Below, piece after piece: positions 1 through 12,543 of a stretch of DNA of 64,000 nt. How positions within the stretch are numbered: the first letter of the stretch is position 1; each line of letters begins with the position of its first letter. Position numbers and translations under genes: made by a program. This stretch comes from Escherichia phage EdH4: sequence record MK327930.1. One strand, 5' to 3'. Below the pieces are notes generated by a model. That model was not told the DNA's origin and made no database searches. It saw only the letters and a program-made list of their open reading frames with translations.

Positions 1-479
1 GGCGGACGGAATGGGAATACTTCTCATTCTTATAACAATTCTCAAATATCGAGGCAGTGAGGCAAATTAATAGGTGAGGCCGTTCACATAGTGGCACAAC
101 ATTTGCAATCTATTTTGTGTGGGGGAATGAGAATACCTATCATTGTGAGAACTGTTATCATTACGGGCAATTTAACATAATACCCATTATGCGCACCACT
201 GGCGATACATACAGGGATTGATAACATGGGTTACTGTTTACGCACATAACAATTATATTTCTTACTATTTGTGTGGGATATAGTTAGCAGCCGATAGATT
301 AGATATTAACCTGCAGACTTCTGACCGTCCAGACGTCTAAACGCCCACACACCAAGGATTATACATACACTCCTGAATGTAAACAGGGCCGCAAAAATGC
401 TACCATACAAGCTTGTAAATTTTTCATGCAGCACTTGACAAAGAGGAGAAAAACTTGTCTGACATAATGTGACCTAACT

Positions 480-590
480 GACACAACATGACACTTTTAC
501 ACACCTATTAGTTTACACACTGGATTGTTTACATTTCTGATTGTTCACATGCTAACCATTTATATGATTGACTGTTTACACACCGATAAT
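480..590. repeat. Five spaced copies of a (T)GTTTACACA-like motif
   Basis: ttttacacacc, gtttacacac, gtttacattt, gttcacatgc, gtttacacacc at 15-25 bp spacing; resembles DnaA-box or iteron arrays. Confidence 0.5.
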
Positions 591-592
591 CA

Positions 593-843
593 GCCATGCC
601 ATTCGTTTGCATGACAATAATTATACATGACAATAATCGCACTGATTATAATTAGCATGACATAATATAAAAGCAGGGCAACTATTAGCAGATCTATAGT
701 TGCCTTGCTTGTTATGTCATGATTAACTAAATACAAGGCAACTATGATCTGATTAATAGTTTGCAGACAAACTATCACGGGGGTGATGGTTACTGCTTTT
801 ATATTATGTCGCGACTCCGTCGCGCCATGCCATTCGTTTGCAT
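593..843. repeat. 20-bp direct repeat GCCATGCCATTCGTTTGCAT (593-612, 824-843) flanking CATGACA(A)TAAT repeats and GGCAACTAT/ATAGTTGCC palindromes
   Basis: Exact 20-mer twice; 9-bp inverted repeat ggcaactat-N10-atagttgcc at about 677-704 plus further copies; operator-like or origin-like. Confidence 0.55.
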
Positions 844-1460
844 AGTTGCCTTATTGTTACGAATAAAACAATTGCATTGTTAATGATTTCTTATCTTTCT
901 CTTAGTCATCTAATGATTCCAGTCAGTATAGTAATGTACAGTAAACATTAGACGACTAAAGATTTCTCTGTTTATTATAACTCACCGTTATAATTTCGAG
1001 CTGTTTACGAAAAATGTTGACATCCTAGCCGATTTATGTTATGCAGTTTACACGAATAATTATTTTATGCAGGTATTGACTATTCCGTTATTCTATGGTT
1101 GGAATAAATACTTAGCAGGCTATAGACTGGTGAGCGTACGTAAATTCTGAGATCTGGCGGCTATAGTTATACTCGATTTTTCACGTAGAACACGCTTTTG
1201 TGGTTATGTAAGTGCATGACTTATAAAGATTTTTAGTTGTTGACAAGATATTGGAGATGTGCATCAGGTTAAAATTTGTGCAATAGCGGCATTACGTGCA
1301 ATTTTGGAAGGTAAAACGGGTAAAAATGGCCTTGCTACCACACAATGAAAAATTATGCAATAGTTATTTTCCATGTATATTTGTACAGTGTGTGGGATTG
1401 ATGGCTCGTCAATTATTCCACTTGCCAGGTAGGGCCGTTTATGGTAGGAAAAGAGAAGAC

Positions 1461-1485
1461 AAAAAGAAAGGGGCTTTAAGCCCCT
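1461..1485 (-). terminator. Rho-independent terminator ending the minus-strand early gene cluster
   Basis: Hairpin aggggctttaagcccct preceded on plus by an A-run (T-run on minus), just downstream of the stop of CDS 1505..1768. Confidence 0.6.
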
Positions 1486-1504
1486 GACCGTTCATCTTGT
1501 TGTA

Positions 1505-1768
1505 TTATTTGTTGCTCATCCAGTTTTCCCAAGCTGCCTGATAATCTGCCTCACTACGGCGGATCTCTTCTTGTTCTTCAAGTCGGATCTCTTCTTCCAG
1601 GTACCCCAAGATGTCAGCCTTTTTGGTCTGGCGTAGCATCCAGTCATCTTTTTTGCGGGTAAAGATCTTATAAGCTTTCTCGCAAACCTCTTTTTTGCTA
1701 CCTTTCTGGACTTCCAGAACACGATAAGCCATATATTGAACTAGTTTGAGCTGGTCAAGACGTTTCAT
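1505..1768 (-). CDS. Hypothetical small early protein
   Basis: 87-aa ORF co-oriented with neighbours; followed by terminator. Confidence 0.6.
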   Translation of the reverse strand: MKRLDQLKLVQYMAYRVLEVQKGSKKEVCEKAYKIFTRKKDDWMLRQTKKADILGYLEEEIRLEEQEEIRRSEADYQAAWENWMSNK

Positions 1769-1830
1769 GATGTTTTTCCTCTTTATGTGGTTTTTGTTTA
1801 GTGGGCCTTTTGGCCCGTGTCATTATCTTA

Positions 1831-2103
1831 TTACTTACGGCGGCAGAATTCAAGAGTTTTTAATTGATAATCTTCCTCAGCCTGGAGTACAACCGCCTCG
1901 ATCATTTCGTTGGCATTGTTGAAGCCATACCCTTTAGCGAACTCATCCGCACCACCTTCGTGATCATGTTCTGCGTTCATCGCTTCCACGAAATGGAATT
2001 CAAGATTATTGAGATAAGGGCTTGATGTTCCGTCCTCTTTTTCGATGAGATCCCAAATAGCATTAAAACGTGATTCGACTTCTTGATTAATCCAGCTTGA
2101 CAT
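1831..2103 (-). CDS. Hypothetical small acidic protein
   Basis: 90-aa ORF; promoter and 5' hairpin upstream. Confidence 0.6.
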   Translation of the reverse strand: MSSWINQEVESRFNAIWDLIEKEDGTSSPYLNNLEFHFVEAMNAEHDHEGGADEFAKGYGFNNANEMIEAVVLQAEEDYQLKTLEFCRRK

Positions 2104-2157
2104 AATGTTTTCCTCTCTTCTGGTTGTTGTGTGGGCACTTTTGCCCCTTCAAGATAA

Positions 2158-2186
2158 ATGTTACCCCACCACCTGGCAGATGTCAA
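2158..2186 (-). promoter_or_regulatory. Sigma70-like promoter (TTGACA-N17-TAACAT) followed by 5' hairpin
   Basis: Minus-strand TTGACA at 2181-2186, -10 at 2158-2163; hairpin gggcacttttgcccc at about 2133-2147 precedes the RBS. Confidence 0.5.
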
Positions 2187-2211
2187 CGGTTTTTATAGTT
2201 CTTATATGACA

Positions 2212-2256
2212 GGCAGGCCCGGTGATTGTCTCCCCCCGTCGCCAGGTGCCTGCCGT
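2212..2256 (-). repeat. GC-rich repeated element, copy C (inverted relative to copies at 11401 and 11555)
   Basis: 2212-2234 is the exact reverse complement of 11555-11577 (23 nt); 2234-2256 is a near reverse complement of 11401-11422. Confidence 0.7.
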
Positions 2257-2270
2257 GTAATAAGTATAAC

Positions 2271-2300
2271 AAAAAACAGGACCATTGCAAGCCCTGTTTT
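2271..2300 (-). terminator. Putative hairpin terminator (bidirectional-looking)
   Basis: aacagg-N12-cctgtt flanked by an A-run and a T-run, downstream of CDS 2315..2506. Confidence 0.4.
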
Positions 2301-2314
2301 CTAGTTAATAAGGA

Positions 2315-2506
2315 TTATATTTTTTCGCCTATGTAGTCCGGTCGGTTTTTCTCTGTCATGCGCTTTAGCAATTCTTGCATGTTACTTATGGCTTGTAGTG
2401 TATCCTCTTCCAGACTTGAATCAACATAATCAGGATCGTCTATGACCTTTCTATGATTATGATAACGCAGTACCGCCAATACCTTTCTAACTTGTTCAAC
2501 ATTCAT
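2315..2506 (-). CDS. Hypothetical protein
   Basis: 63-aa ORF co-oriented with neighbours. Confidence 0.45.
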   Translation of the reverse strand: MNVEQVRKVLAVLRYHNHRKVIDDPDYVDSSLEEDTLQAISNMQELLKRMTEKNRPDYIGEKI

Positions 2507-2655
2507 TTTTATCGCTCTTTAAAACAAGGTGCCAACCGTTTCTAGTAGATCACTGACCACCAGGACAATACTGATCAGCACATATCTAACCATAAGGGGA
2601 AAGAGCGCCAGCGATCCCGCCACAATCCCCAAGGTAATGATTATCTTTTTCACGG

Positions 2656-2940
2656 TTAACGGTTAACGTAAGCTTTACCGTTCACGGTTATGGGTAGATC
2701 CTCCAGGTCTGGATCTTCCTTAAGGTCGCGAGCAAGCTCACCGCACCGGATACCCTCGAATCCGTAGTACTCTGTTGTACCGTCATTAAAAGTTTTAGCG
2801 GCAAGGCATAAGCGATAAGTAACCCCGATTTGATTGACGGCATGGATATCCGTTAGATCAACCTCTTTTGCCAGCTCTTTAGCCATTACAGGCGCATTAA
2901 GTCCAACAACCAGGGCAACTACTGCGATCATCTTTTTCAT
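2656..2940 (-). CDS. Small secreted protein with N-terminal signal peptide
   Basis: MKKMIAVVALVVGLNAPVMA then a polar mature region with 2 Cys; RBS gaaagagga upstream. Confidence 0.6.
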   Translation of the reverse strand: MKKMIAVVALVVGLNAPVMAKELAKEVDLTDIHAVNQIGVTYRLCLAAKTFNDGTTEYYGFEGIRCGELARDLKEDPDLEDLPITVNGKAYVNR

Positions 2941-3031
2941 TGTGTCTATCCTCTTTCTGCTACGTTTAAGGCGGCAGTAACCGCCTGTTTATGATTTATT
3001 GGTTAATTTTCAGGTATCGCTATAAATTAAA

Positions 3032-3256
3032 CTATGCTGTACGCTCAACTATAACAACGGTTTGAGGGATCTCACCTTCCACCACTATCAAGGCCTTTTT
3101 CTGCGTGATGGATATCTTTACCCGTTGCAGCGTGGCGGTGAAGTCTTTCATTTCGTCACGTGGTGTTTTAGTGCAATGCCAGATCTCAGGCTTACCTATT
3201 TGCAAGCCGCGTAAAAATTCTGTTTTACCTGTCTTATTCGTGATCATTTGATTCAC
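3032..3256 (-). CDS. Hypothetical protein
   Basis: 74-aa ORF; AAGGTGA RBS-like upstream. Confidence 0.45.
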   Translation of the reverse strand: MNQMITNKTGKTEFLRGLQIGKPEIWHCTKTPRDEMKDFTATLQRVKISITQKKALIVVEGEIPQTVVIVERTA

Positions 3257-3257
3257 C

Positions 3258-3461
3258 TTAACCGATACCGTGGGAAGATAGGATCATGTTAGCCATAGTT
3301 GCAACCACTCCAACCGATAATGCCAGGCCAACTACTACAACCGTGAAAATTTTCTCTAACATGATTCTACCCTCATTAATGGGCGTTGCCTTATTGCCCC
3401 GCCCTACGAAATACAGTCTATCAAGTAATAAACTATTGTCAAGATTTATTTTACTTCCCAA
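3258..3461 (-). CDS. Hypothetical small membrane protein (start uncertain)
   Basis: 67-aa ORF with hydrophobic C-terminal segment VVVVGLALSVGVVATMANMIL. Confidence 0.35.
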   Translation of the reverse strand: MGSKINLDNSLLLDRLYFVGRGNKATPINEGRIMLEKIFTVVVVGLALSVGVVATMANMILSSHGIG

Positions 3462-3582
3462 ACGGAAAATTCACTACCTGGCGGAATCATCTTTTTAATC
3501 TTGTTTGCTGCTGCTACCAGATCCACGGCTTGTACTGTAATAATATAACCAATTGTCGAGGCTGTTGCGTTGAAAGTTTTCA
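3446..3582 (-). CDS. Hypothetical 45-aa protein (below ORF-track cutoff)
   Basis: ATG preceded by a GAGG RBS and the ggcgggaa..ttcccgc hairpin; MKTFNATASTIGYIITVQ... Confidence 0.35.
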
Positions 3583-3663
3583 TTAAATTACCCTCATTAA
3601 TGGCGGGAAGTATTCCCGCGCTATGTAGTACACTTTACCAGATTGTTGACTGTTGTCAAACTA

Positions 3664-3846
3664 TTTTAACGATAATCATCATATGCTTTATTGACCTGGC
3701 GAATATAACATTCAAAAGCTAGATCAATAGATTTATATTCACGGATATATTCACCATAGGAAACCACATACATTTCTATAGCTTCCTCATATGCGAGGAG
3801 AATAGAATCTAAGCCTACGATCTCAGTCTTTGCAATAATAGCCATG
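3664..3846 (-). CDS. Hypothetical 59-aa protein (below ORF-track cutoff)
   Basis: ATG at about 3846 with an agagga RBS; MAIIAKTEIVGLDSILLAYEEAIEMYVVSYGEYIREYK... Confidence 0.45.
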
Positions 3847-3920
3847 ATTTTTATCCTCTTTGTGGTTGGTGGGGCTTGTTGCCCCCTTTGATTTATATTC
3901 TACAGTCTTATAAGGTCATG

Positions 3921-4154
3921 TCAACTGTTTTCAAAAAATTTTTCTGCTGTAATATTTTTCCCGGTAGGGTTCGCTACTTTCAAAATTTTATCATGCACCG
4001 GACGCCCGAAAGAATAAGATCCGTATACAGTAAACCAATAATTGCCGTCAGGCTGTACTATTACCGCCGCATATGGTACGCCTTTTTCGTTTTTGCTGAC
4101 AAAATAGATCACATTGCCATTAATAGCCTCGGCGCGTTTAATTTGTTCCATCAT
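3921..4154 (-). CDS. Hypothetical protein
   Basis: 77-aa ORF. Confidence 0.55.
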   Translation of the reverse strand: MMEQIKRAEAINGNVIYFVSKNEKGVPYAAVIVQPDGNYWFTVYGSYSFGRPVHDKILKVANPTGKNITAEKFFENS

Positions 4155-4217
4155 GATGATTCACCTATCTTTATTTTTTCATAGTTTCAGGAGGGGGCCT
4201 TTTCGGCCCCGCCAGGT

Positions 4218-4502
4218 TTATTTATTGATAGCGTGCAGCGGGAAAGGTACGCCAGGTTGATAGATAACCTTTACAACCTCATCAGGACAAAAGAAATTGC
4301 AGAACTCACCGCAATAGGCCTCATCCTCTTTCAACTCTTCATCAACATACTCAAAAAAGTAGTCGATGCTTGGATAATCTTGCCCTGGGTTATAGTCAAC
4401 CATTGTCAGGACTAGTTCAAGATCGTTGCGTAGGATATGCATACCCGCTTTTAAGTATTTTGCTTCCATTTCCACTACATCGCCAACGGTAACAATAGCC
4501 AT
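4218..4502 (-). CDS. Hypothetical acidic protein
   Basis: 94-aa ORF; promoter-like TTGCAT-N16-GATAAT upstream at about 4560-4590. Confidence 0.55.
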   Translation of the reverse strand: MAIVTVGDVVEMEAKYLKAGMHILRNDLELVLTMVDYNPGQDYPSIDYFFEYVDEELKEDEAYCGEFCNFFCPDEVVKVIYQPGVPFPLHAINK

Positions 4503-4708
4503 GGTTTTAACTCCTATCTATCCGGTTAATGATTGGAGGCCTCACCGCCCCCCGACACCCTTTATTATCCATATTGTAGGACTTGATGCAAGTACTTCTT
4601 TAAAAATTTTTTAAGCGCCTTGGGGGCCGCTGTAACGCCAAAATAATAAAGGCTATGCAACCGCATAGCCTTTATGTGATTATATCGCTGCAGGCCCTGC
4701 CAGGGGCC

Positions 4709-5059
4709 TTATTTTGCATTCTTTCCTATATTGCCGCTACGGTACCAGCGTTTACGGTGAAAATGGTAATAATCACCATCGGCATTAAACATCAGATGAT
4801 TTTCAATAACCAGCTTACGAAGGTGGGCCGGATCTTGTTCCATTCTTGCCAGATTCTGGCGGCTGTTACGTAAGCGGATAAATTCTATATTCAGGCCGTT
4901 GATTGCAGCATGGATGTCAAAGTAACCACCTTTGAGACGTTCACGCATGGCGTTAAGCTCAACACAATATACAGATTTCTCACAAATCAAGGTATTAGCC
5001 AGGGCGCGGACCTGGGCAAGGGGGTTAAGCTCATTAAGGTAATATAGTTTTACTTTCAT
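4709..5059 (-). CDS. Hypothetical protein
   Basis: 116-aa ORF. Confidence 0.6.
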   Translation of the reverse strand: MKVKLYYLNELNPLAQVRALANTLICEKSVYCVELNAMRERLKGGYFDIHAAINGLNIEFIRLRNSRQNLARMEQDPAHLRKLVIENHLMFNADGDYYHFHRKRWYRSGNIGKNAK

Positions 5060-5076
5060 AAAATCACCTGCTGAAA

Positions 5077-5376
5077 TTAGTTTGAGAAAACATCGTTCAC
5101 AATAGCGATCACAATGCCGCCCACCTTGTCACGGTCAACAATGCACAAATCACCATAGATCATGTGGTAGTCTGGATGATCTTTGACGGAATAGTCGATA
5201 AGTGTTTTCTTGTCATCCAGCTTACTAACTTCCATTCTCATAACGATATGAGAATCATCAAAGGCATTATTCCGAAAAGTCATAACCTGACCGCCAGGGC
5301 ACCCGGTGATTTCCACCTCCACGCCGTCTACGATCTGACCATCAAAGAAATAAAGATTATTAGCCTGGATAAACAT
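5077..5376 (-). CDS. Hypothetical protein (start trimmed to ATG with AAAGGAG RBS)
   Basis: Track start at 5397 is a GTG; the ATG at 5376 has a canonical RBS. Confidence 0.55.
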   Translation of the reverse strand: MFIQANNLYFFDGQIVDGVEVEITGCPGGQVMTFRNNAFDDSHIVMRMEVSKLDDKKTLIDYSVKDHPDYHMIYGDLCIVDRDKVGGIVIAIVNDVFSN

Positions 5377-11022: not shown

Positions 11023-11196
11023 CTATTTTAAATTATTTTTATGATAGAATCCACCTGCCGCCCCCCGCCAGGTTAACCACCATTTTTCGTACTCTTCTTT
11101 ATGTTCCAACGCTCCCGCCATAGCCTTTTCAACCAGGGCGATAGCCTCAGAGTCATTAATAGCTACATTTTCCAGGGGGATCATATTACCTTTCAT
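11023..11196 (-). CDS. Hypothetical 57-aa protein (below ORF-track cutoff)
   Basis: RBS gaggagg then ATG; MKGNMIPLENVAINDSEAIALVEKAMAGALEHKEEYEKWW... Confidence 0.45.
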   Translation of the reverse strand: MKGNMIPLENVAINDSEAIALVEKAMAGALEHKEEYEKWWLTWRGAAGGFYHKNNLK

Positions 11197-11354
11197 TTTT
11201 GTACCTCCTCTTCAATTGTTACCTATCCTGTAGCATAGGCCCACCAGGTTTACAAGCCTTCATTCTCCCCTACCTGGTCAGTTAGGTCCTGCCAGGCTGG
11301 CCCCGCCAGGTTGCAGCGGTTAGCGCATCAGGTTAGAAAAATTTTTTGAAAAGT

Positions 11355-11383
11355 GTTGACAGCGGCCCCGCCAGGTGGCACAA
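11355..11383 (+). promoter_or_regulatory. Plus-strand sigma70-like promoter TTGACA-N17-CACAAT pointing into a non-coding region
   Basis: No plus-strand ORF downstream; the GC-rich element begins about 18 nt after the -10. Confidence 0.45.
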
Positions 11384-11400
11384 TATACCTATCGAAAGGA

Positions 11401-11437
11401 CGGCAGGCACCGGTGACGGGGGAGACAACCACCGGGG
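11401..11437 (+). repeat. GC-rich repeated element, copy A
   Basis: cggcaggcaccggtgacgggggagacaaccaccgggg; related to copies at 11555 and 2212. Confidence 0.6.
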
Positions 11438-11500
11438 ATGGGCGCTGCATAAAATGAGAACGGTTATCATTATCATTTAAAAATTTATGCAAAAAAATCC

Positions 11501-11531
11501 TTGCTTTCTTTGTCCTGTGTGATACTATAAT
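11501..11531 (+). promoter_or_regulatory. Plus-strand promoter TTGCTT-N16-TACTATAAT
   Basis: Transcribes toward the AT-rich iteron region; no ORF downstream. Confidence 0.45.
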
Positions 11532-11554
11532 AACAAGCCGGGGCAACAGGGGCC

Positions 11555-11577
11555 GGGAGACAATCACCGGGCCTGCC
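11555..11577 (+). repeat. GC-rich repeated element, copy B
   Basis: gggagacaatcaccgggcctgcc; exact reverse complement of 2212-2234. Confidence 0.7.
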
Positions 11578-11699
11578 CGTTATTCTGCAAACGAGAATGA
11601 TTATCATTCAAAATTCTAAATGAGAACTCCTAGCATTTAATAAATTTAATTAGCACGCTAATTACCCTCCGTAACAATTTACTATAAAATAGTATCCAC

Positions 11700-12190
11700 T
11701 AAAATATTCCCATATAGAAATTTTAAAAATCCATTTCTGAAAACGAAAAATCGATTTCGTCCCCAAAAATTTCAGGTTGAGAGCCGGAACGATTTCCAGA
11801 AAATCCGATTCAGAAAACGAAAAACAGATCGAGTACTGAGAAATTTATCGAGAAAAATTTTCAGAAAATCCAAGCCCTGAAATGAAAAGTAGATCGAGTA
11901 CCTGGAAAGCTGCACCGCAACTTCAAGATAGCGGTTAGATTGTTACCATAGAAGGTCAAGGGTAAGTGGAGGAAGTTCTAGTAGAGAGAGGTTAGCATGT
12001 GTGGGAAATCTATAATGGTGGCCTGGAATATGGTGCAAACGATAGGATGAGTTATTCAGCTTGTCGCGCCTACTCTGAAAAATCCATTTTAGTTTTCGAT
12101 CCATTTTCTGATTTTCTAAGAATTTTAAAATATCCAGCCCGGTGAAATATCAAAAGGAGGAAATCCATTTTAGAAATCCCCCTTATACTT
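11700..12190. repeat. AT-rich non-coding region with iteron-like direct repeats (candidate replication origin)
   Basis: Three copies of a unit agaaaatcc-N-cagaaaacgaaaa-N-agatcgagtac at about 11720-11905, plus aaaatccatttt copies at about 12075-12180; no ORF on either strand. Confidence 0.5.
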
Positions 12191-12213
12191 GATATGCCAG
12201 GAATTTTCAAGTA

Positions 12214-12543
12214 TCAGTTGTCTTTGTTTTTAGGTTTGTACATGCGCAGAGGTATGGTCTTTGTAACATTCCATTTCCTCAACCCTTCCCAGCTCCAGTT
12301 GTGGGCGTGGTATCCGGTTATGCATGCACTACTGGAGTGATCGTAAGCATAAGAGAACGCTAAGCGCACCAGGTGGGGCCAGTCCTTCCATGGTTGTGGA
12401 CCGTAAGCTTTTCTCCAACACCGACACAAACTAAATGTCTCAAGGATAGGAAGGATAACAAACCCATACACTGTCACCAAAATAGCCAGTGCAATGATTG
12501 TCAGGAATACATACCCTGCAGTTGAAATGATGATCTCTGTCAT
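12214..12543 (-). CDS. Membrane protein
   Basis: 109-aa ORF with N-terminal TM helix IISTAGYVFLTIIALAILVTVYGFVILPIL. Confidence 0.55.
   Translation of the reverse strand: MTEIIISTAGYVFLTIIALAILVTVYGFVILPILETFSLCRCWRKAYGPQPWKDWPHLVRLAFSYAYDHSSSACITGYHAHNWSWEGLRKWNVTKTIPLRMYKPKNKDN

What the first reader, a model, noticed from the sequence alone, without database searches (positions are those of the whole stretch)
11340..12200. ORF-free region with two plus-strand promoters firing into iteron-like repeats: candidate transcription-activated replication origin
Within a block of minus-strand genes lies about 900 bp with no credible ORF. It has two rightward promoters (TTGACA-N17-CACAAT at 11355; TTGCTT-N16-TACTATAAT at 11501) followed by an AT-rich stretch carrying three direct repeats of about 40 bp (agaaaatcc..cagaaaacgaaaa..agatcgagtac) plus aaaatccatttt copies. 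A promoter upstream of an AT-rich repeat region is the arrangement seen at transcription-primed phage origins (T7 primary origin, T4 oriF/oriG). Alternatively the promoters could drive small non-coding RNAs.
Basis: partly seen in the sequence, partly recalled or inferred. Interest (0 to 1): 0.65.

Follow-up and report, generated by a model that had tools for sequence, protein, structure and literature searches.

The report
Fur-box-gated non-coding locus in phage
A 1-kb gene-free stretch of an rV5-like E. coli phage holds two outward-facing promoters, each followed by a conserved RNA hairpin and by binding sites of the type used by the host iron regulator Fur, which lead into AT-rich repeats; it may be a replication origin switched by transcription, but that is unproven.

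Summary
Window 11197-12213 has no credible gene. It carries two plus-strand sigma-70 promoters, an AT-rich trough and three long direct repeats.

The same layout is kept across Vequintavirinae genera, Phapecoctavirus and an Aeromonas phage. Within Vequintavirus, 11301-11900 is better conserved than the flanking genes.

- Each promoter opens directly onto a roughly 50-nt hairpin with an invariant GAGACAAnCACC loop. It is absent from Rfam and from bacterial genomes. A third copy lies at 2204-2258 (minus strand).
- Each hairpin is followed at fixed distance by 19-bp palindromes, AATGAKAATnATTMTCATT. They match published Fur-box consensuses and score higher than E. coli's own enterobactin operators on the same scale. 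No phage Fur homologue was found, so host Fur is the inferred binder.

Other findings:
- The window starts at the genome's physical left end, a 459-bp terminal repeat that also holds Fur-type boxes. The gap therefore lies at about 8% of the genome and is not the packaging terminus.
- I found no DnaA boxes, no neighbouring initiator gene and no classical iteron spacing.

Origin function remains plausible (about 0.4) but untested. Rivals are a Fur-gated non-coding RNA locus, a T5 iss-like DNA-entry element and a Fur decoy.

The parts
11197..12213 (.). Conserved ORF-free gap inside a block of minus-strand early genes
   Evidence: an equivalent gap in relatives; 11301-11900 is 93-98% identical among Vequintavirus relatives, flanking genes 77-92%
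11356..11384 (+). Promoter P1: TTGACA-N17-(TG)CACAAT, with a GC-rich spacer containing GCCAGGTGG
   Evidence: orthologous GC-spacer promoters in relatives
11403..11448 (+). Leader hairpin U1: outer stem GCAGGC/GCGCUGC, apical GAGACAACCACC
   Evidence: fold; partial covariance-model hit at 11415-11440, 18.7 bits; 16-mer match with 1 mismatch
11453..11477 (.). Two overlapping Fur-type boxes, AATGAGAACGGTTATCATT (16/18) and AACGGTTATCATTATCATT (15/18)
   Evidence: consensus identity to published Fur boxes
11501..11531 (+). Promoter P2: TTGCTT-N16-TGaTACTAT (overlapping TATAAT)
   Evidence: read directly; orthologous promoters at a fixed distance from the hairpin in all relatives
11533..11585 (+). 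Leader hairpin U2, the best copy of the GAGACAAnCACC motif
   Evidence: covariance-model hit of 54.8 bits, E 8e-14; fold z-score -2.55; the piece found by blastn in the most distant genera
11590..11637 (.). Fur-type boxes AACGAGAATGATTATCATT (17/18, 11590-11608) and AATGAGAACTCCTAGCATT (14/18, 11619-11637), 29 bp apart
   Evidence: the same +33/+62 register in all relatives
11600..11750 (.). AT-rich trough (27% GC) just downstream of the hairpin and boxes
   Evidence: present in most relatives
11713..11908 (+). Three direct repeats of about 57 nt (11713-11769, 11787-11843, 11852-11908) ending in GATCGAGTAC
   Evidence: three homologous units in each Vequintavirinae genus
11950..12049 (+). Strongly G-skewed segment (GC skew +0.64) on the non-template strand of P1/P2 transcripts; the least conserved part of the gap
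12070..12200 (+). Right-hand repeat cluster (AAATCCATTTT, GATCCATTTT, AAATATC copies), 91-95% conserved
2204..2258 (-). Third copy of the leader hairpin, just after a TTGCAA-N17-TATACT promoter whose -35 sits in a terminator loop, upstream of a 90-aa gene
   Evidence: (32.7 bits)
10..162 (.). Three more Fur-type boxes (10-28, 126-144, 144-162) inside the 459-bp direct terminal repeat
   Evidence: a similar cluster in the KPP-1 terminal region

Best explanation
The gap is a conserved, non-coding, cis-acting control locus, not a gene.

Proposed mechanism:
1. Two host-RNA-polymerase (sigma-70) early promoters point rightward, against all neighbouring genes.
2. Each transcript begins with a roughly 50-nt GC-rich, G-cluster-rich hairpin presenting an invariant GAGACAAnCACC loop.
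3. About 10 nt after the hairpin, RNA polymerase meets a phased array of Fur-type operators (19-bp palindromes at 29-bp intervals).
4. I infer that Fe-loaded host Fur bound there acts as a roadblock, so only the short leader is made. When Fur is unloaded or titrated, transcription reads into the AT-rich trough and the three lineage-specific repeats of about 57-67 nt.
5. The most likely purpose of that read-through is to open or prime this DNA as a transcription-activated replication origin, as at the T7 primary origin. The repeats would be sites for a phage protein.

Shown: the anatomy, its conservation, and the match of the boxes to Fur-family consensus.
Inferred: Fur binding, roadblocking, and origin function.
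For: Conservation:
- Layout kept across five genera, an Aeromonas phage and metagenomic contigs.
- The non-coding stretch 11301-11900 is 93-98% identical, against 77-92% for flanking genes.
- Flanking genes differ between genera, including HNH, T5orf172 and NADAR insertions, while the gap persists.

Promoters:
- P1 is the only plus-strand promoter with a perfect TTGACA in the first 20 kb.

Hairpin:
- Covariance-model hits in the window at 11533-11585, 2204-2258 and 11415-11440.
- Outer stem 83-88% paired, with A-U to G-C exchanges.
- In every instance I inspected by eye it follows a promoter-like -35/-10 pair.

Boxes:
- 5 hits at 15/18 or better in 64 kb against 0.2 expected, all in non-coding DNA.
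- Consensus identical to the Xanthomonas Fur box, and the core identical to E. faecalis Fur boxes.
- Genuine E. coli ent-fep operators score only 14-15/18 on the same scale.
- Fixed register of +33, +62, +91 and +128/129 in all genera.
- Half-site asymmetry (GAGAAT/ATTATC) would give a G.A mismatch in an RNA stem, which argues for a DNA site (direct reading).
- No Fur homologue in the window or in any Vequintavirinae record.

Origin-like features:
- AT trough of 27% GC.
- The long repeats differ between lineages while the Fur boxes stay constant, as expected if a phage protein and a host protein bind them respectively.
- The origin of rV5 is undefined and its helicase-primase resembles podovirus ones (PMC3606486).
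Against: - No experiment of any kind bears on transcription, Fur binding or replication here, and I found no transcriptome for this subfamily.
- The repeats are long and widely spaced (65-78 nt), unlike 17-22-bp phased iterons.
- No initiator-like gene lies next to the gap. There are no DnaA boxes and GATC is not enriched.
- The hairpin also precedes ordinary mRNAs at 2204-2258 and at second loci in CR3-like phages, so it is not origin-specific.
- Covariation support for the hairpin is only moderate. On the unbiased MAFFT alignment it is not significant, and a +3 slide scores as high on the model-fitted one.
- Fur operators normally overlap promoters. Here they lie about +60 to +180 downstream.
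- A larger repeat-rich non-coding region at the genome terminus (window 1-1500) is an equally good place for an origin.
- GC skew only follows transcription direction (PMC3606486).
Confidence: 0.4

Rival explanations
1. Non-coding RNA locus. P1 and P2 exist to make RNA products. These could be short hairpin leader RNAs of about 55-60 nt released at the Fur roadblock and acting in trans or as protein decoys, or a 0.7-0.85-kb long non-coding RNA made when Fur is off. The downstream DNA matters only as the RNA template.
For: - Both promoters open directly onto the most widely conserved piece of the locus, the hairpin plus first box.
- The hairpin has compensatory changes and is phage-restricted.
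- Other genera place a different conserved, possibly structured transcript between P1 and P2.
- The Fur-repressed small RNAs RyhB and PrrF are a precedent for iron-gated riboregulators (my own knowledge).
Against: - No intrinsic terminator follows the hairpin. The candidate at 12182-12232 folds weakly (-8.1 kcal/mol, z +0.8).
- The hairpin is also a leader of ordinary mRNAs, which suggests a cis role.
- The downstream 600 bp is AT-rich with A5T6 tracts and lineage-specific repeats, which looks like protein-binding DNA rather than structured RNA.
- No Rfam family matches.
Confidence: 0.25
2. DNA-entry or domain-boundary element analogous to the T5 injection stop signal. A conserved untranslated repeat region at about 8% of the genome binds an abundant host DNA-binding protein (here Fur, in T5 proposedly DnaA) to pause or organise genome entry. 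It would separate a first-entering block of small early genes from the rest. The rightward promoters might restart or pull in the remaining DNA.
For: - Window position 1 is the physical left end (459-bp terminal repeat), so the gap lies at 8.0-8.8% of a genome of about 139 kb. In KPP-1 it lies about 8.3 kb (5.8%) from the mapped repeat.
- Fur-type boxes occur both in the terminal repeat region and in the gap, in two genera.
- The T5 iss is a conserved untranslated repeat region at 7.9% with precisely arranged host-protein boxes, better conserved than neighbouring genes (10.1101/866236).
- Vequintavirinae share daunorubicin sensitivity with T5-like phages (PMC13250531).
Against: - No evidence that these myoviruses inject DNA in two steps, or that the left end enters first.
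- The T5 model for host-protein involvement is itself a hypothesis.
- The terminal repeat here is 0.46 kb, not about 10 kb as in T5-like phages.
- No sequence relationship to T5.
Confidence: 0.12
3. Fur decoy. The box arrays serve to titrate host Fur as phage DNA amplifies. This would derepress host iron uptake and iron-dependent nucleotide metabolism for the phage's benefit. The promoters and repeats would be unrelated neighbours.
For: - High-scoring boxes are numerous per genome, two clusters plus a second copy of the terminal repeat.
- They match the consensus better than host operators do.
- Multicopy Fur boxes are known to derepress the regulon, which is the principle of the Fur titration assay (my own knowledge).
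Against: - It does not explain the fixed +33 register to the hairpin, the 29-bp phasing, or the promoter orientation.
- It does not explain the conservation of the remaining 600 bp.
- Only about 5-8 boxes per genome.
Confidence: 0.08

Closest known systems
T7 primary replication origin (promoters 1.1A/1.1B followed by an AT-rich region); T4 oriF/oriG and oriE (my own knowledge)
   Same: Tandem promoters fire into an AT-rich, non-coding stretch. The transcript is not needed as a message. This phage family has a podovirus-like helicase-primase (PMC3606486).
   Different: The promoters are host sigma-70 type. A conserved leader hairpin and a Fur-type operator array lie between promoter and AT-rich DNA. 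The repeats are long and lineage-specific. No replication data exist.
Fur operators (E. coli 19-bp Fur box; Xanthomonas AATGAgAATcATTctCATT, PMC1790865; E. faecalis TGAGAATGATTCTCA, PMC6056675)
   Same: 9-1-9 palindrome identical to or within 1-2 positions of these consensuses. Overlapping 6-bp-shifted sites occur at 11453/11459. The boxes come in arrays of adjacent sites.
   Different: They lie in a virulent phage, in non-coding DNA, about 60-180 bp downstream of the predicted start site rather than over the -35/-10. They prefer GAGAAT to the enterobacterial GATAAT. Spacing is a regular 29 bp.
T5 injection stop signal region (10.1101/866236)
   Same: A conserved untranslated region rich in repeats and palindromes, at about 8% from the left end, with ordered boxes for a host DNA-binding protein. 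It is more conserved than the adjacent genes, and HNH genes insert nearby.
   Different: Different host protein (DnaA in T5, Fur-type here). The region lies within a 10-kb terminal repeat in T5. T5 is a siphovirus with proven two-step transfer. T5 has no promoter-plus-hairpin units described there.
Promoter-proximal leader RNA elements of phage early transcripts: lambda nut/boxB, HK022 put, the T7 R0.3 RNase III site (my own knowledge)
   Same: A conserved stem-loop placed just after early promoters, in several copies per genome.
   Different: No sequence or Rfam relationship. No N-like or other partner protein was identified. Two of the three copies head transcripts with no gene.

Membership tests
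Fur-family operator (Fur box) | 19-bp 9-1-9 (7-1-7 core) inverted repeat matching the AATGAtAATnATTaTCATT-type consensus | tested here: met
   Window boxes score 16, 15, 17 and 14 of 18. Relatives reach 18/18. The consensus equals published Fur boxes. E. coli ent-fep operators score 14-15/18 on the same scale.
Fur-family operator (Fur box) | More frequent than chance and confined to regulatory DNA | tested here: met
   5 hits at 15/18 or better against 0.2 expected in 64 kb. All lie in the two ORF-free regions. The same holds in KPP-1.
Fur-family operator (Fur box) | Overlaps the -35/-10 of the regulated promoter | tested here: not met
   The boxes start 33 nt after the hairpin loop, about +60 from the predicted start site. 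The U1 boxes lie about 24-48 bp upstream of the P2 -35.
Fur-family operator (Fur box) | Bound by Fur-Fe2+; iron-dependent regulation | not testable with these tools
   Needs EMSA or footprinting, ChIP, or a fur deletion host.
Iteron-type origin (lambda, P1, plasmid Rep origins) | Several 17-22-bp direct repeats in helical phase | tested here: not met
   The repeats are about 57 nt at 74 and 65 nt spacing, 63-74% identical; 39-67 nt at 63-78 nt spacing in relatives.
Iteron-type origin (lambda, P1, plasmid Rep origins) | Initiator gene adjacent to or containing the repeats | tested here: not met
   Neighbouring proteins have no Pfam match or belong to PHROGs of unknown function. They differ between genera.
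Iteron-type origin (lambda, P1, plasmid Rep origins) | AT-rich unwinding region; DnaA boxes | tested here: inconclusive
   The AT trough is present (27% GC). There are no DnaA boxes in the gap.
Transcription-primed phage origin (T7 primary, T4 oriF/G) | Promoter immediately upstream of an AT-rich or unwinding element, with the transcript not used as mRNA | tested here: met
   P1 and P2 are followed by the AT trough, with no ORF downstream.
Transcription-primed phage origin (T7 primary, T4 oriF/G) | Replication initiates there (R-loop or primer use) | not testable with these tools
   Needs marker-frequency analysis, 2D gels or origin cloning.
Any described RNA family (Rfam 15) | Match at or near the family's gathering score | tested here: not met
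   No gathering-level hit in the window. Only chance-level hits in the gap. None in six relatives. No tRNA or tmRNA.
Genome terminus / packaging site (terminal repeat) | Coincides with the physical ends of virion DNA | tested here: not met
   The HdK5 record repeats its first 459 bp at its end, and window position 1 aligns with its position 1. The KPP-1 terminal repeat was mapped 8 kb from the homologous gap.
T5 iss-like entry-stop region | Conserved untranslated repeat region at about 8% from the left end, with ordered host-protein boxes | tested here: met
   The gap lies at 8.0-8.8%. For the box array and conservation. T5 description.
T5 iss-like entry-stop region | Two-step DNA transfer halting at the site | not testable with these tools
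   Needs shear or marker-entry experiments.

The most novel reading that the evidence does not exclude
A virulent phage family uses the host iron sensor Fur as a switch. Phased Fur operators sit just behind a dedicated leader hairpin at about 8% of the genome, and again in the terminal repeat. They would gate non-coding transcription into the phage's origin or DNA-entry control region, so that genome replication or entry is tuned to the host's iron status. The GAGACAAnCACC hairpin would be a new phage-specific class of promoter-proximal RNA element.
Probability: 0.2. Interest if true: 0.85.

Novelty: new variant of a known kind. Interest (0 to 1): 0.66.

Why it matters
- rV5-like and related phages are widely isolated and used as therapeutic and biocontrol candidates. 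Their replication origin and early regulation are unknown. The rV5 genome paper could not define an origin.
- This locus is the best-conserved non-coding element I examined in this window, and it gives concrete, testable parts.
- If host Fur really binds here and in the terminal repeat, it would be a rare case of a strictly lytic phage wiring a core host metal sensor into its own cis-acting DNA. That would bear on how such phages behave in iron-poor environments such as the gut or infected tissue.
- The leader hairpin is a candidate new RNA family, restricted to phages in the collections I searched.

Tried and rejected
- Rfam at gathering and permissive thresholds, and tRNA/tmRNA search: nothing.
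- Protein-coding reading of gap ORFs, including FFH2's annotated ORF179-181: rejected by frameshifts and lack of protein-like constraint. A conserved mini-ORF MRMI(I/L)IQ over box 1 was rejected too. It has no conserved SD, and the 'codons' vary as palindrome half-sites.
- RNA-hairpin reading of the palindromic boxes: rejected because the recurrent GAGAAT/ATTATC pairing gives an uncompensated G.A mismatch.
- Packaging site or terminus: rejected.
- CRISPR-like mini-array: rejected, because the repeats are only 63-74% identical and unlike known repeats.
- GATC/Dam cluster: not enriched, 3 per kb against 5 per kb.
- DnaA boxes: none.
- Plus-strand intrinsic terminator at 12182-12232: weak.
- Adjacent initiator gene: none.
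- Phage-encoded Fur: none.
- RNAalifold on a plain MAFFT alignment found no structure because the 5' halves misalign. A covariance model was used instead.
- Bacterial genomes: only chance coding-region matches to the hairpin pattern.
- Literature: no transcriptome for this subfamily and no report of Fur boxes in a lytic phage locus.

Full report
**Identity and setting**

The window is a Vequintavirus (rV5-like myovirus of E. coli). The gap region is 98% identical to phage FFH2, and 114 phage records cover at least 80% of it.

The first 459 bp of the HdK5 record are repeated exactly at its end. Window position 1 aligns with HdK5 position 1. The window therefore starts at the physical left end, a direct terminal repeat, and the finding lies 11.2-12.2 kb from it, at 8.0-8.8% of a genome of about 139 kb.

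The first 38 kb are almost all minus-strand genes. Promoter-like sites scoring at least 10/12 in the first 20 kb are 21 on the minus strand and 2 on the plus strand.

**Checking the observation**

- Real genes end at 11196 and start again at 12214.
- The ORFs inside the gap that some records annotate are not genes. The 79-aa minus-strand ORF is broken in all six relatives. The 48-aa plus-strand ORF is broken in one relative and varies in a way no protein would.
- P1 is TTGACA-N17-CACAAT with an upstream TG.
- P2 is TTGCTT-N16-TGaTACTAT, overlapping TATAAT. Its weak -35 makes the generic scan miss it, but an equivalent promoter sits at the same place in every relative.
- GC falls to 27% at 11600-11750.
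- The direct repeats are three units of about 57 nt at 11713, 11787 and 11852, 63-74% identical.
- AAAATCCATTTT-like copies are over-represented, 5 against 1.07 expected, with three in the gap.

**Conservation**

Among six Vequintavirus relatives, the non-coding stretch 11301-11900 is 93-98% identical and 12081-12200 is 91-95% identical. The flanking genes are 77-92% identical, and 11900-12080 is 78%.

At longer range, blastn finds only one short piece, window 11553-11644. It turns up in Mydovirus, Seunavirus, Certrevirus, Phapecoctavirus and an Aeromonas phage, nearly always in unannotated DNA.

Reading those loci shows the same architecture each time. An ORF-free gap of 0.4-1 kb sits in a minus-strand block, with rightward promoters, the conserved piece, then AT-rich repeats. 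The genes beside the gap differ between genera: HNH or T5orf172 endonucleases, a NADAR protein, and unknowns. The gap is therefore the conserved entity, not its neighbours.

**New feature 1: a promoter-proximal hairpin**

Within about 12 nt of each predicted start site begins a GC-rich hairpin of about 50 nt. It has an outer stem, an inner short stem around CCGG/CCGG, and an apical GAGACAAnCACC.

A covariance model built from ten orthologues finds these copies in the window:
- 11533-11585, plus strand, 54.8 bits.
- 2204-2258, minus strand, 32.7 bits.
- 11415-11440, plus strand, partial, 18.7 bits.

The 16-mer GGGAGACAATCACCGG occurs three times against 0.33 expected.

The outer stem is 83-88% paired and shows A-U to G-C exchanges. 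Paralogous copies use quite different stem sequences that still pair, such as GGCAGGC/GCCUGCC, AUAGCGGG/CCCGCUAU and GGGG/CCCC. The statistics are only moderate. On the unbiased alignment the shuffles often match the observed score, and on the model-fitted alignment one slid control scores as high.

Every instance I inspected by eye, in IMG/VR and metagenomes, follows a sigma-70-like promoter. Often the -35 is embedded in the loop of the upstream terminator.

The motif has no Rfam match. It is absent from 185,579 bacterial and archaeal genomes apart from chance coding hits.

The copy at 2204-2258 and second loci in CR3-like phages head ordinary mRNAs. The hairpin is therefore a general leader element of a subset of early promoters. 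Its function is unknown. Antitermination, 5' stabilisation, a processing site or R-loop seeding are all possible.

**New feature 2: Fur-type operators**

Starting exactly 33 nt after the GAGACAA in every genus comes a 19-bp palindrome, AATGAKAATnATTMTCATT. Further copies follow at +62, +91 and +128/129, a 29-bp phasing.

In the window the boxes are:
- 11453 (16/18) and an overlapping one at 11459 (15/18), after U1.
- 11590 (17/18) and 11619 (14/18), after U2.

Over the whole 64 kb there are 5 sites at 15/18 or better against 0.2 expected. The other two lie in the terminal repeat at 10 and 126.

A literature string search showed that this sequence is the published Fur-box consensus of Xanthomonas campestris. 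Its 15-bp core is the Fur box of E. faecalis iron transporters. That paper also reports 84% identity to the Shewanella and B. subtilis Fur boxes.

As a positive control, I applied the same scoring to 24 kb of the E. coli K-12 enterobactin cluster. Seven of the eight hits at 14/18 or better fall in the fepA-fes, fepD-entS and fepB-entC control regions, at 14-15/18. The phage boxes are therefore better Fur-family palindromes than the host's own.

The recurrent asymmetric half-sites (GAGAAT with ATTATC) would put an uncompensated G.A in an RNA stem. This points to a DNA-protein site.

Neither the window nor any Vequintavirinae record encodes a Fur homologue, so host Fur is the inferred ligand. 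All known hosts share its specificity, which would explain why the boxes stay constant while the rest diverges.

KPP-1, a Mydovirus, shows the same two clusters, one in the terminal-repeat region and one in the gap. I found no paper describing Fur boxes in a lytic phage non-coding locus.

**The downstream DNA**

After the boxes comes the AT trough, then three long direct repeats. In Seunavirus and Mydovirus each unit starts with an A5T6 tract and ends in GATCGAG(W)ACC. Certrevirus units share the GATCGAG core without the tract. Phapecoctavirus has two unrelated 62-nt repeats instead.

Then come a G-skewed, poorly conserved segment (11950-12049, skew +0.64) and a well-conserved cluster of short repeats.

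Lineage-specific repeats next to invariant host-factor sites are what one expects if a phage protein binds the repeats. They are not classical iterons, however. There are no DnaA boxes, GATC is not enriched, and no initiator-like gene is adjacent.

**What it is not**

It is not the packaging terminus. The terminal repeat is at window 1-459. In KPP-1 the mapped 514-bp repeat lies 8 kb from the homologous gap.

**Interpretation**

The best-supported statement is anatomical. This is a conserved non-coding control locus in which early promoters, a leader hairpin and a phased Fur-type operator array lead into AT-rich, repeat-bearing DNA.

For mechanism, I favour Fur-gated read-through that activates a replication origin (0.4). 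The reasons are:
- The promoters are oriented so that they serve no gene.
- The AT-rich repeats are under strong constraint.
- The family's origin is unknown, and GC-skew analysis failed to reveal it (PMC3606486).
- Its helicase-primase resembles those of podoviruses, and in T7 (my own knowledge) origins are promoter-driven.

The rivals are:
- A Fur-gated non-coding RNA locus (0.25).
- An element controlling DNA entry or domain organisation, like the T5 injection stop signal (0.12). That signal is also a conserved untranslated repeat region at 7.9% with ordered host-protein boxes.
- A Fur decoy (0.08).

None of these can be separated without experiments.

**Verdict**

I rate the locus a new variant of a known kind (a promoter-driven non-coding cis element of a phage). 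It has an unusual and testable link to host iron regulation.

Noticed in passing
window 1-459: The window starts at the physical left end. The HdK5 record repeats its first 459 bp exactly at its right end, and its position 1 aligns with window position 1. Fur-type boxes lie at 10-28 (10 nt from the DNA end), 126-144 and 144-162 inside this terminal repeat.
   Followed up: partly
window 1-1500 (continues about 1 kb leftwards in circular-permuted records; L108 2900-5340): A second, larger ORF-poor region full of short repeats (gtgtgtaaac, caaacgaatggcatggc, ggcaactata, ttattgtcatg). It corresponds in position to the 'no observable ORFs' region that the rV5 paper reports at rV5 coordinates 104013-106618, at the convergence of two transcription units. 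It is an alternative place for an origin or packaging signals.
   Followed up: partly
window 2150-2310 (minus strand): Compact early-promoter cassette. A terminator hairpin has the -35 (TTGCAA) in its loop and its T-run as spacer. Then come TATACT, the GAGACAA hairpin, a second promoter TTGACA-N17-TAACAT with a GCCAGGTGG spacer, another small leader hairpin and the gene. The same terminator-embedded promoter design recurs in CR3-like phages and in a 215-kb metagenomic contig (L034).
   Followed up: partly
window 3598-3660 (minus strand): Another early promoter (TTGACA-N16-TAAAGT) whose transcript starts ACAUAGCGCGGGAAUACUUCCCGC. It has the same 5' start as the hairpin family but a plain stem-loop without the GAGACAA loop (weak model hit, 17.6 bits).
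   Followed up: no
window 11236-11380, also 11061-11077 and 12361-12382: Repeated GGCCCCGCCAGGT / CCAGGT motif. There are five to six copies upstream of and inside the P1 spacer, and it also occurs in the spacer of the promoter at about 2170. It contains Dcm (CCWGG) sites and may be an operator for a phage regulator. The promoter of the 57-aa gene (11023-11196) was not identified.
   Followed up: no
L004 1305-1410, L006 1318-1425, L002 1380-1485, L005 about 1330-1430: In Mydovirus, Seunavirus, Certrevirus CR3 and Phapecoctavirus, P1 drives a different, highly conserved transcript of about 90 nt (…GCCACCCCACGGCGAAAAGGCGGGGCUAAC…GGAAGGUGGAUCGC…) in place of the first hairpin unit. It has no Rfam or tRNA match. 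PcCB7V has lost it by a deletion between the two 'tacacatag' repeats.
   Followed up: partly
L004 1420-1450, L005, L006, L002, L055 about 4980: A direct repeat TGTAAAGA-N2-3-GTAAAGA lies just upstream of the P2 -35 in the other genera and upstream of another promoter in a CR3-like contig. It may be an activator or UP-like site. It is absent from the window.
   Followed up: no
L004 1072-1257, L005 about 1097-1287, L002 1076-1342, L007 1208-1402: Other genera carry a small plus-strand ORF (61-88 aa) just upstream of P1, in the same orientation as P1 and P2. There the locus is a small rightward unit of ORF, P1, RNA, P2, hairpin, boxes and repeats. The window has no equivalent ORF.
   Followed up: no
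whole window: DnaA-box consensus TTWTNCACA occurs only twice in 64 kb, against 8.7 +/- 2.8 expected from shuffles.
   Followed up: no
L034 (215-kb metagenomic contig) 776-5132: At least five copies of the ACGGGGGAGACAAnCACC leader occur in 5 kb, on both strands, each after a terminator plus an extended -10 promoter. One pair forms a 16-bp inverted repeat about 55 bp apart. The motif is therefore widespread in an unrelated large phage.
   Followed up: no
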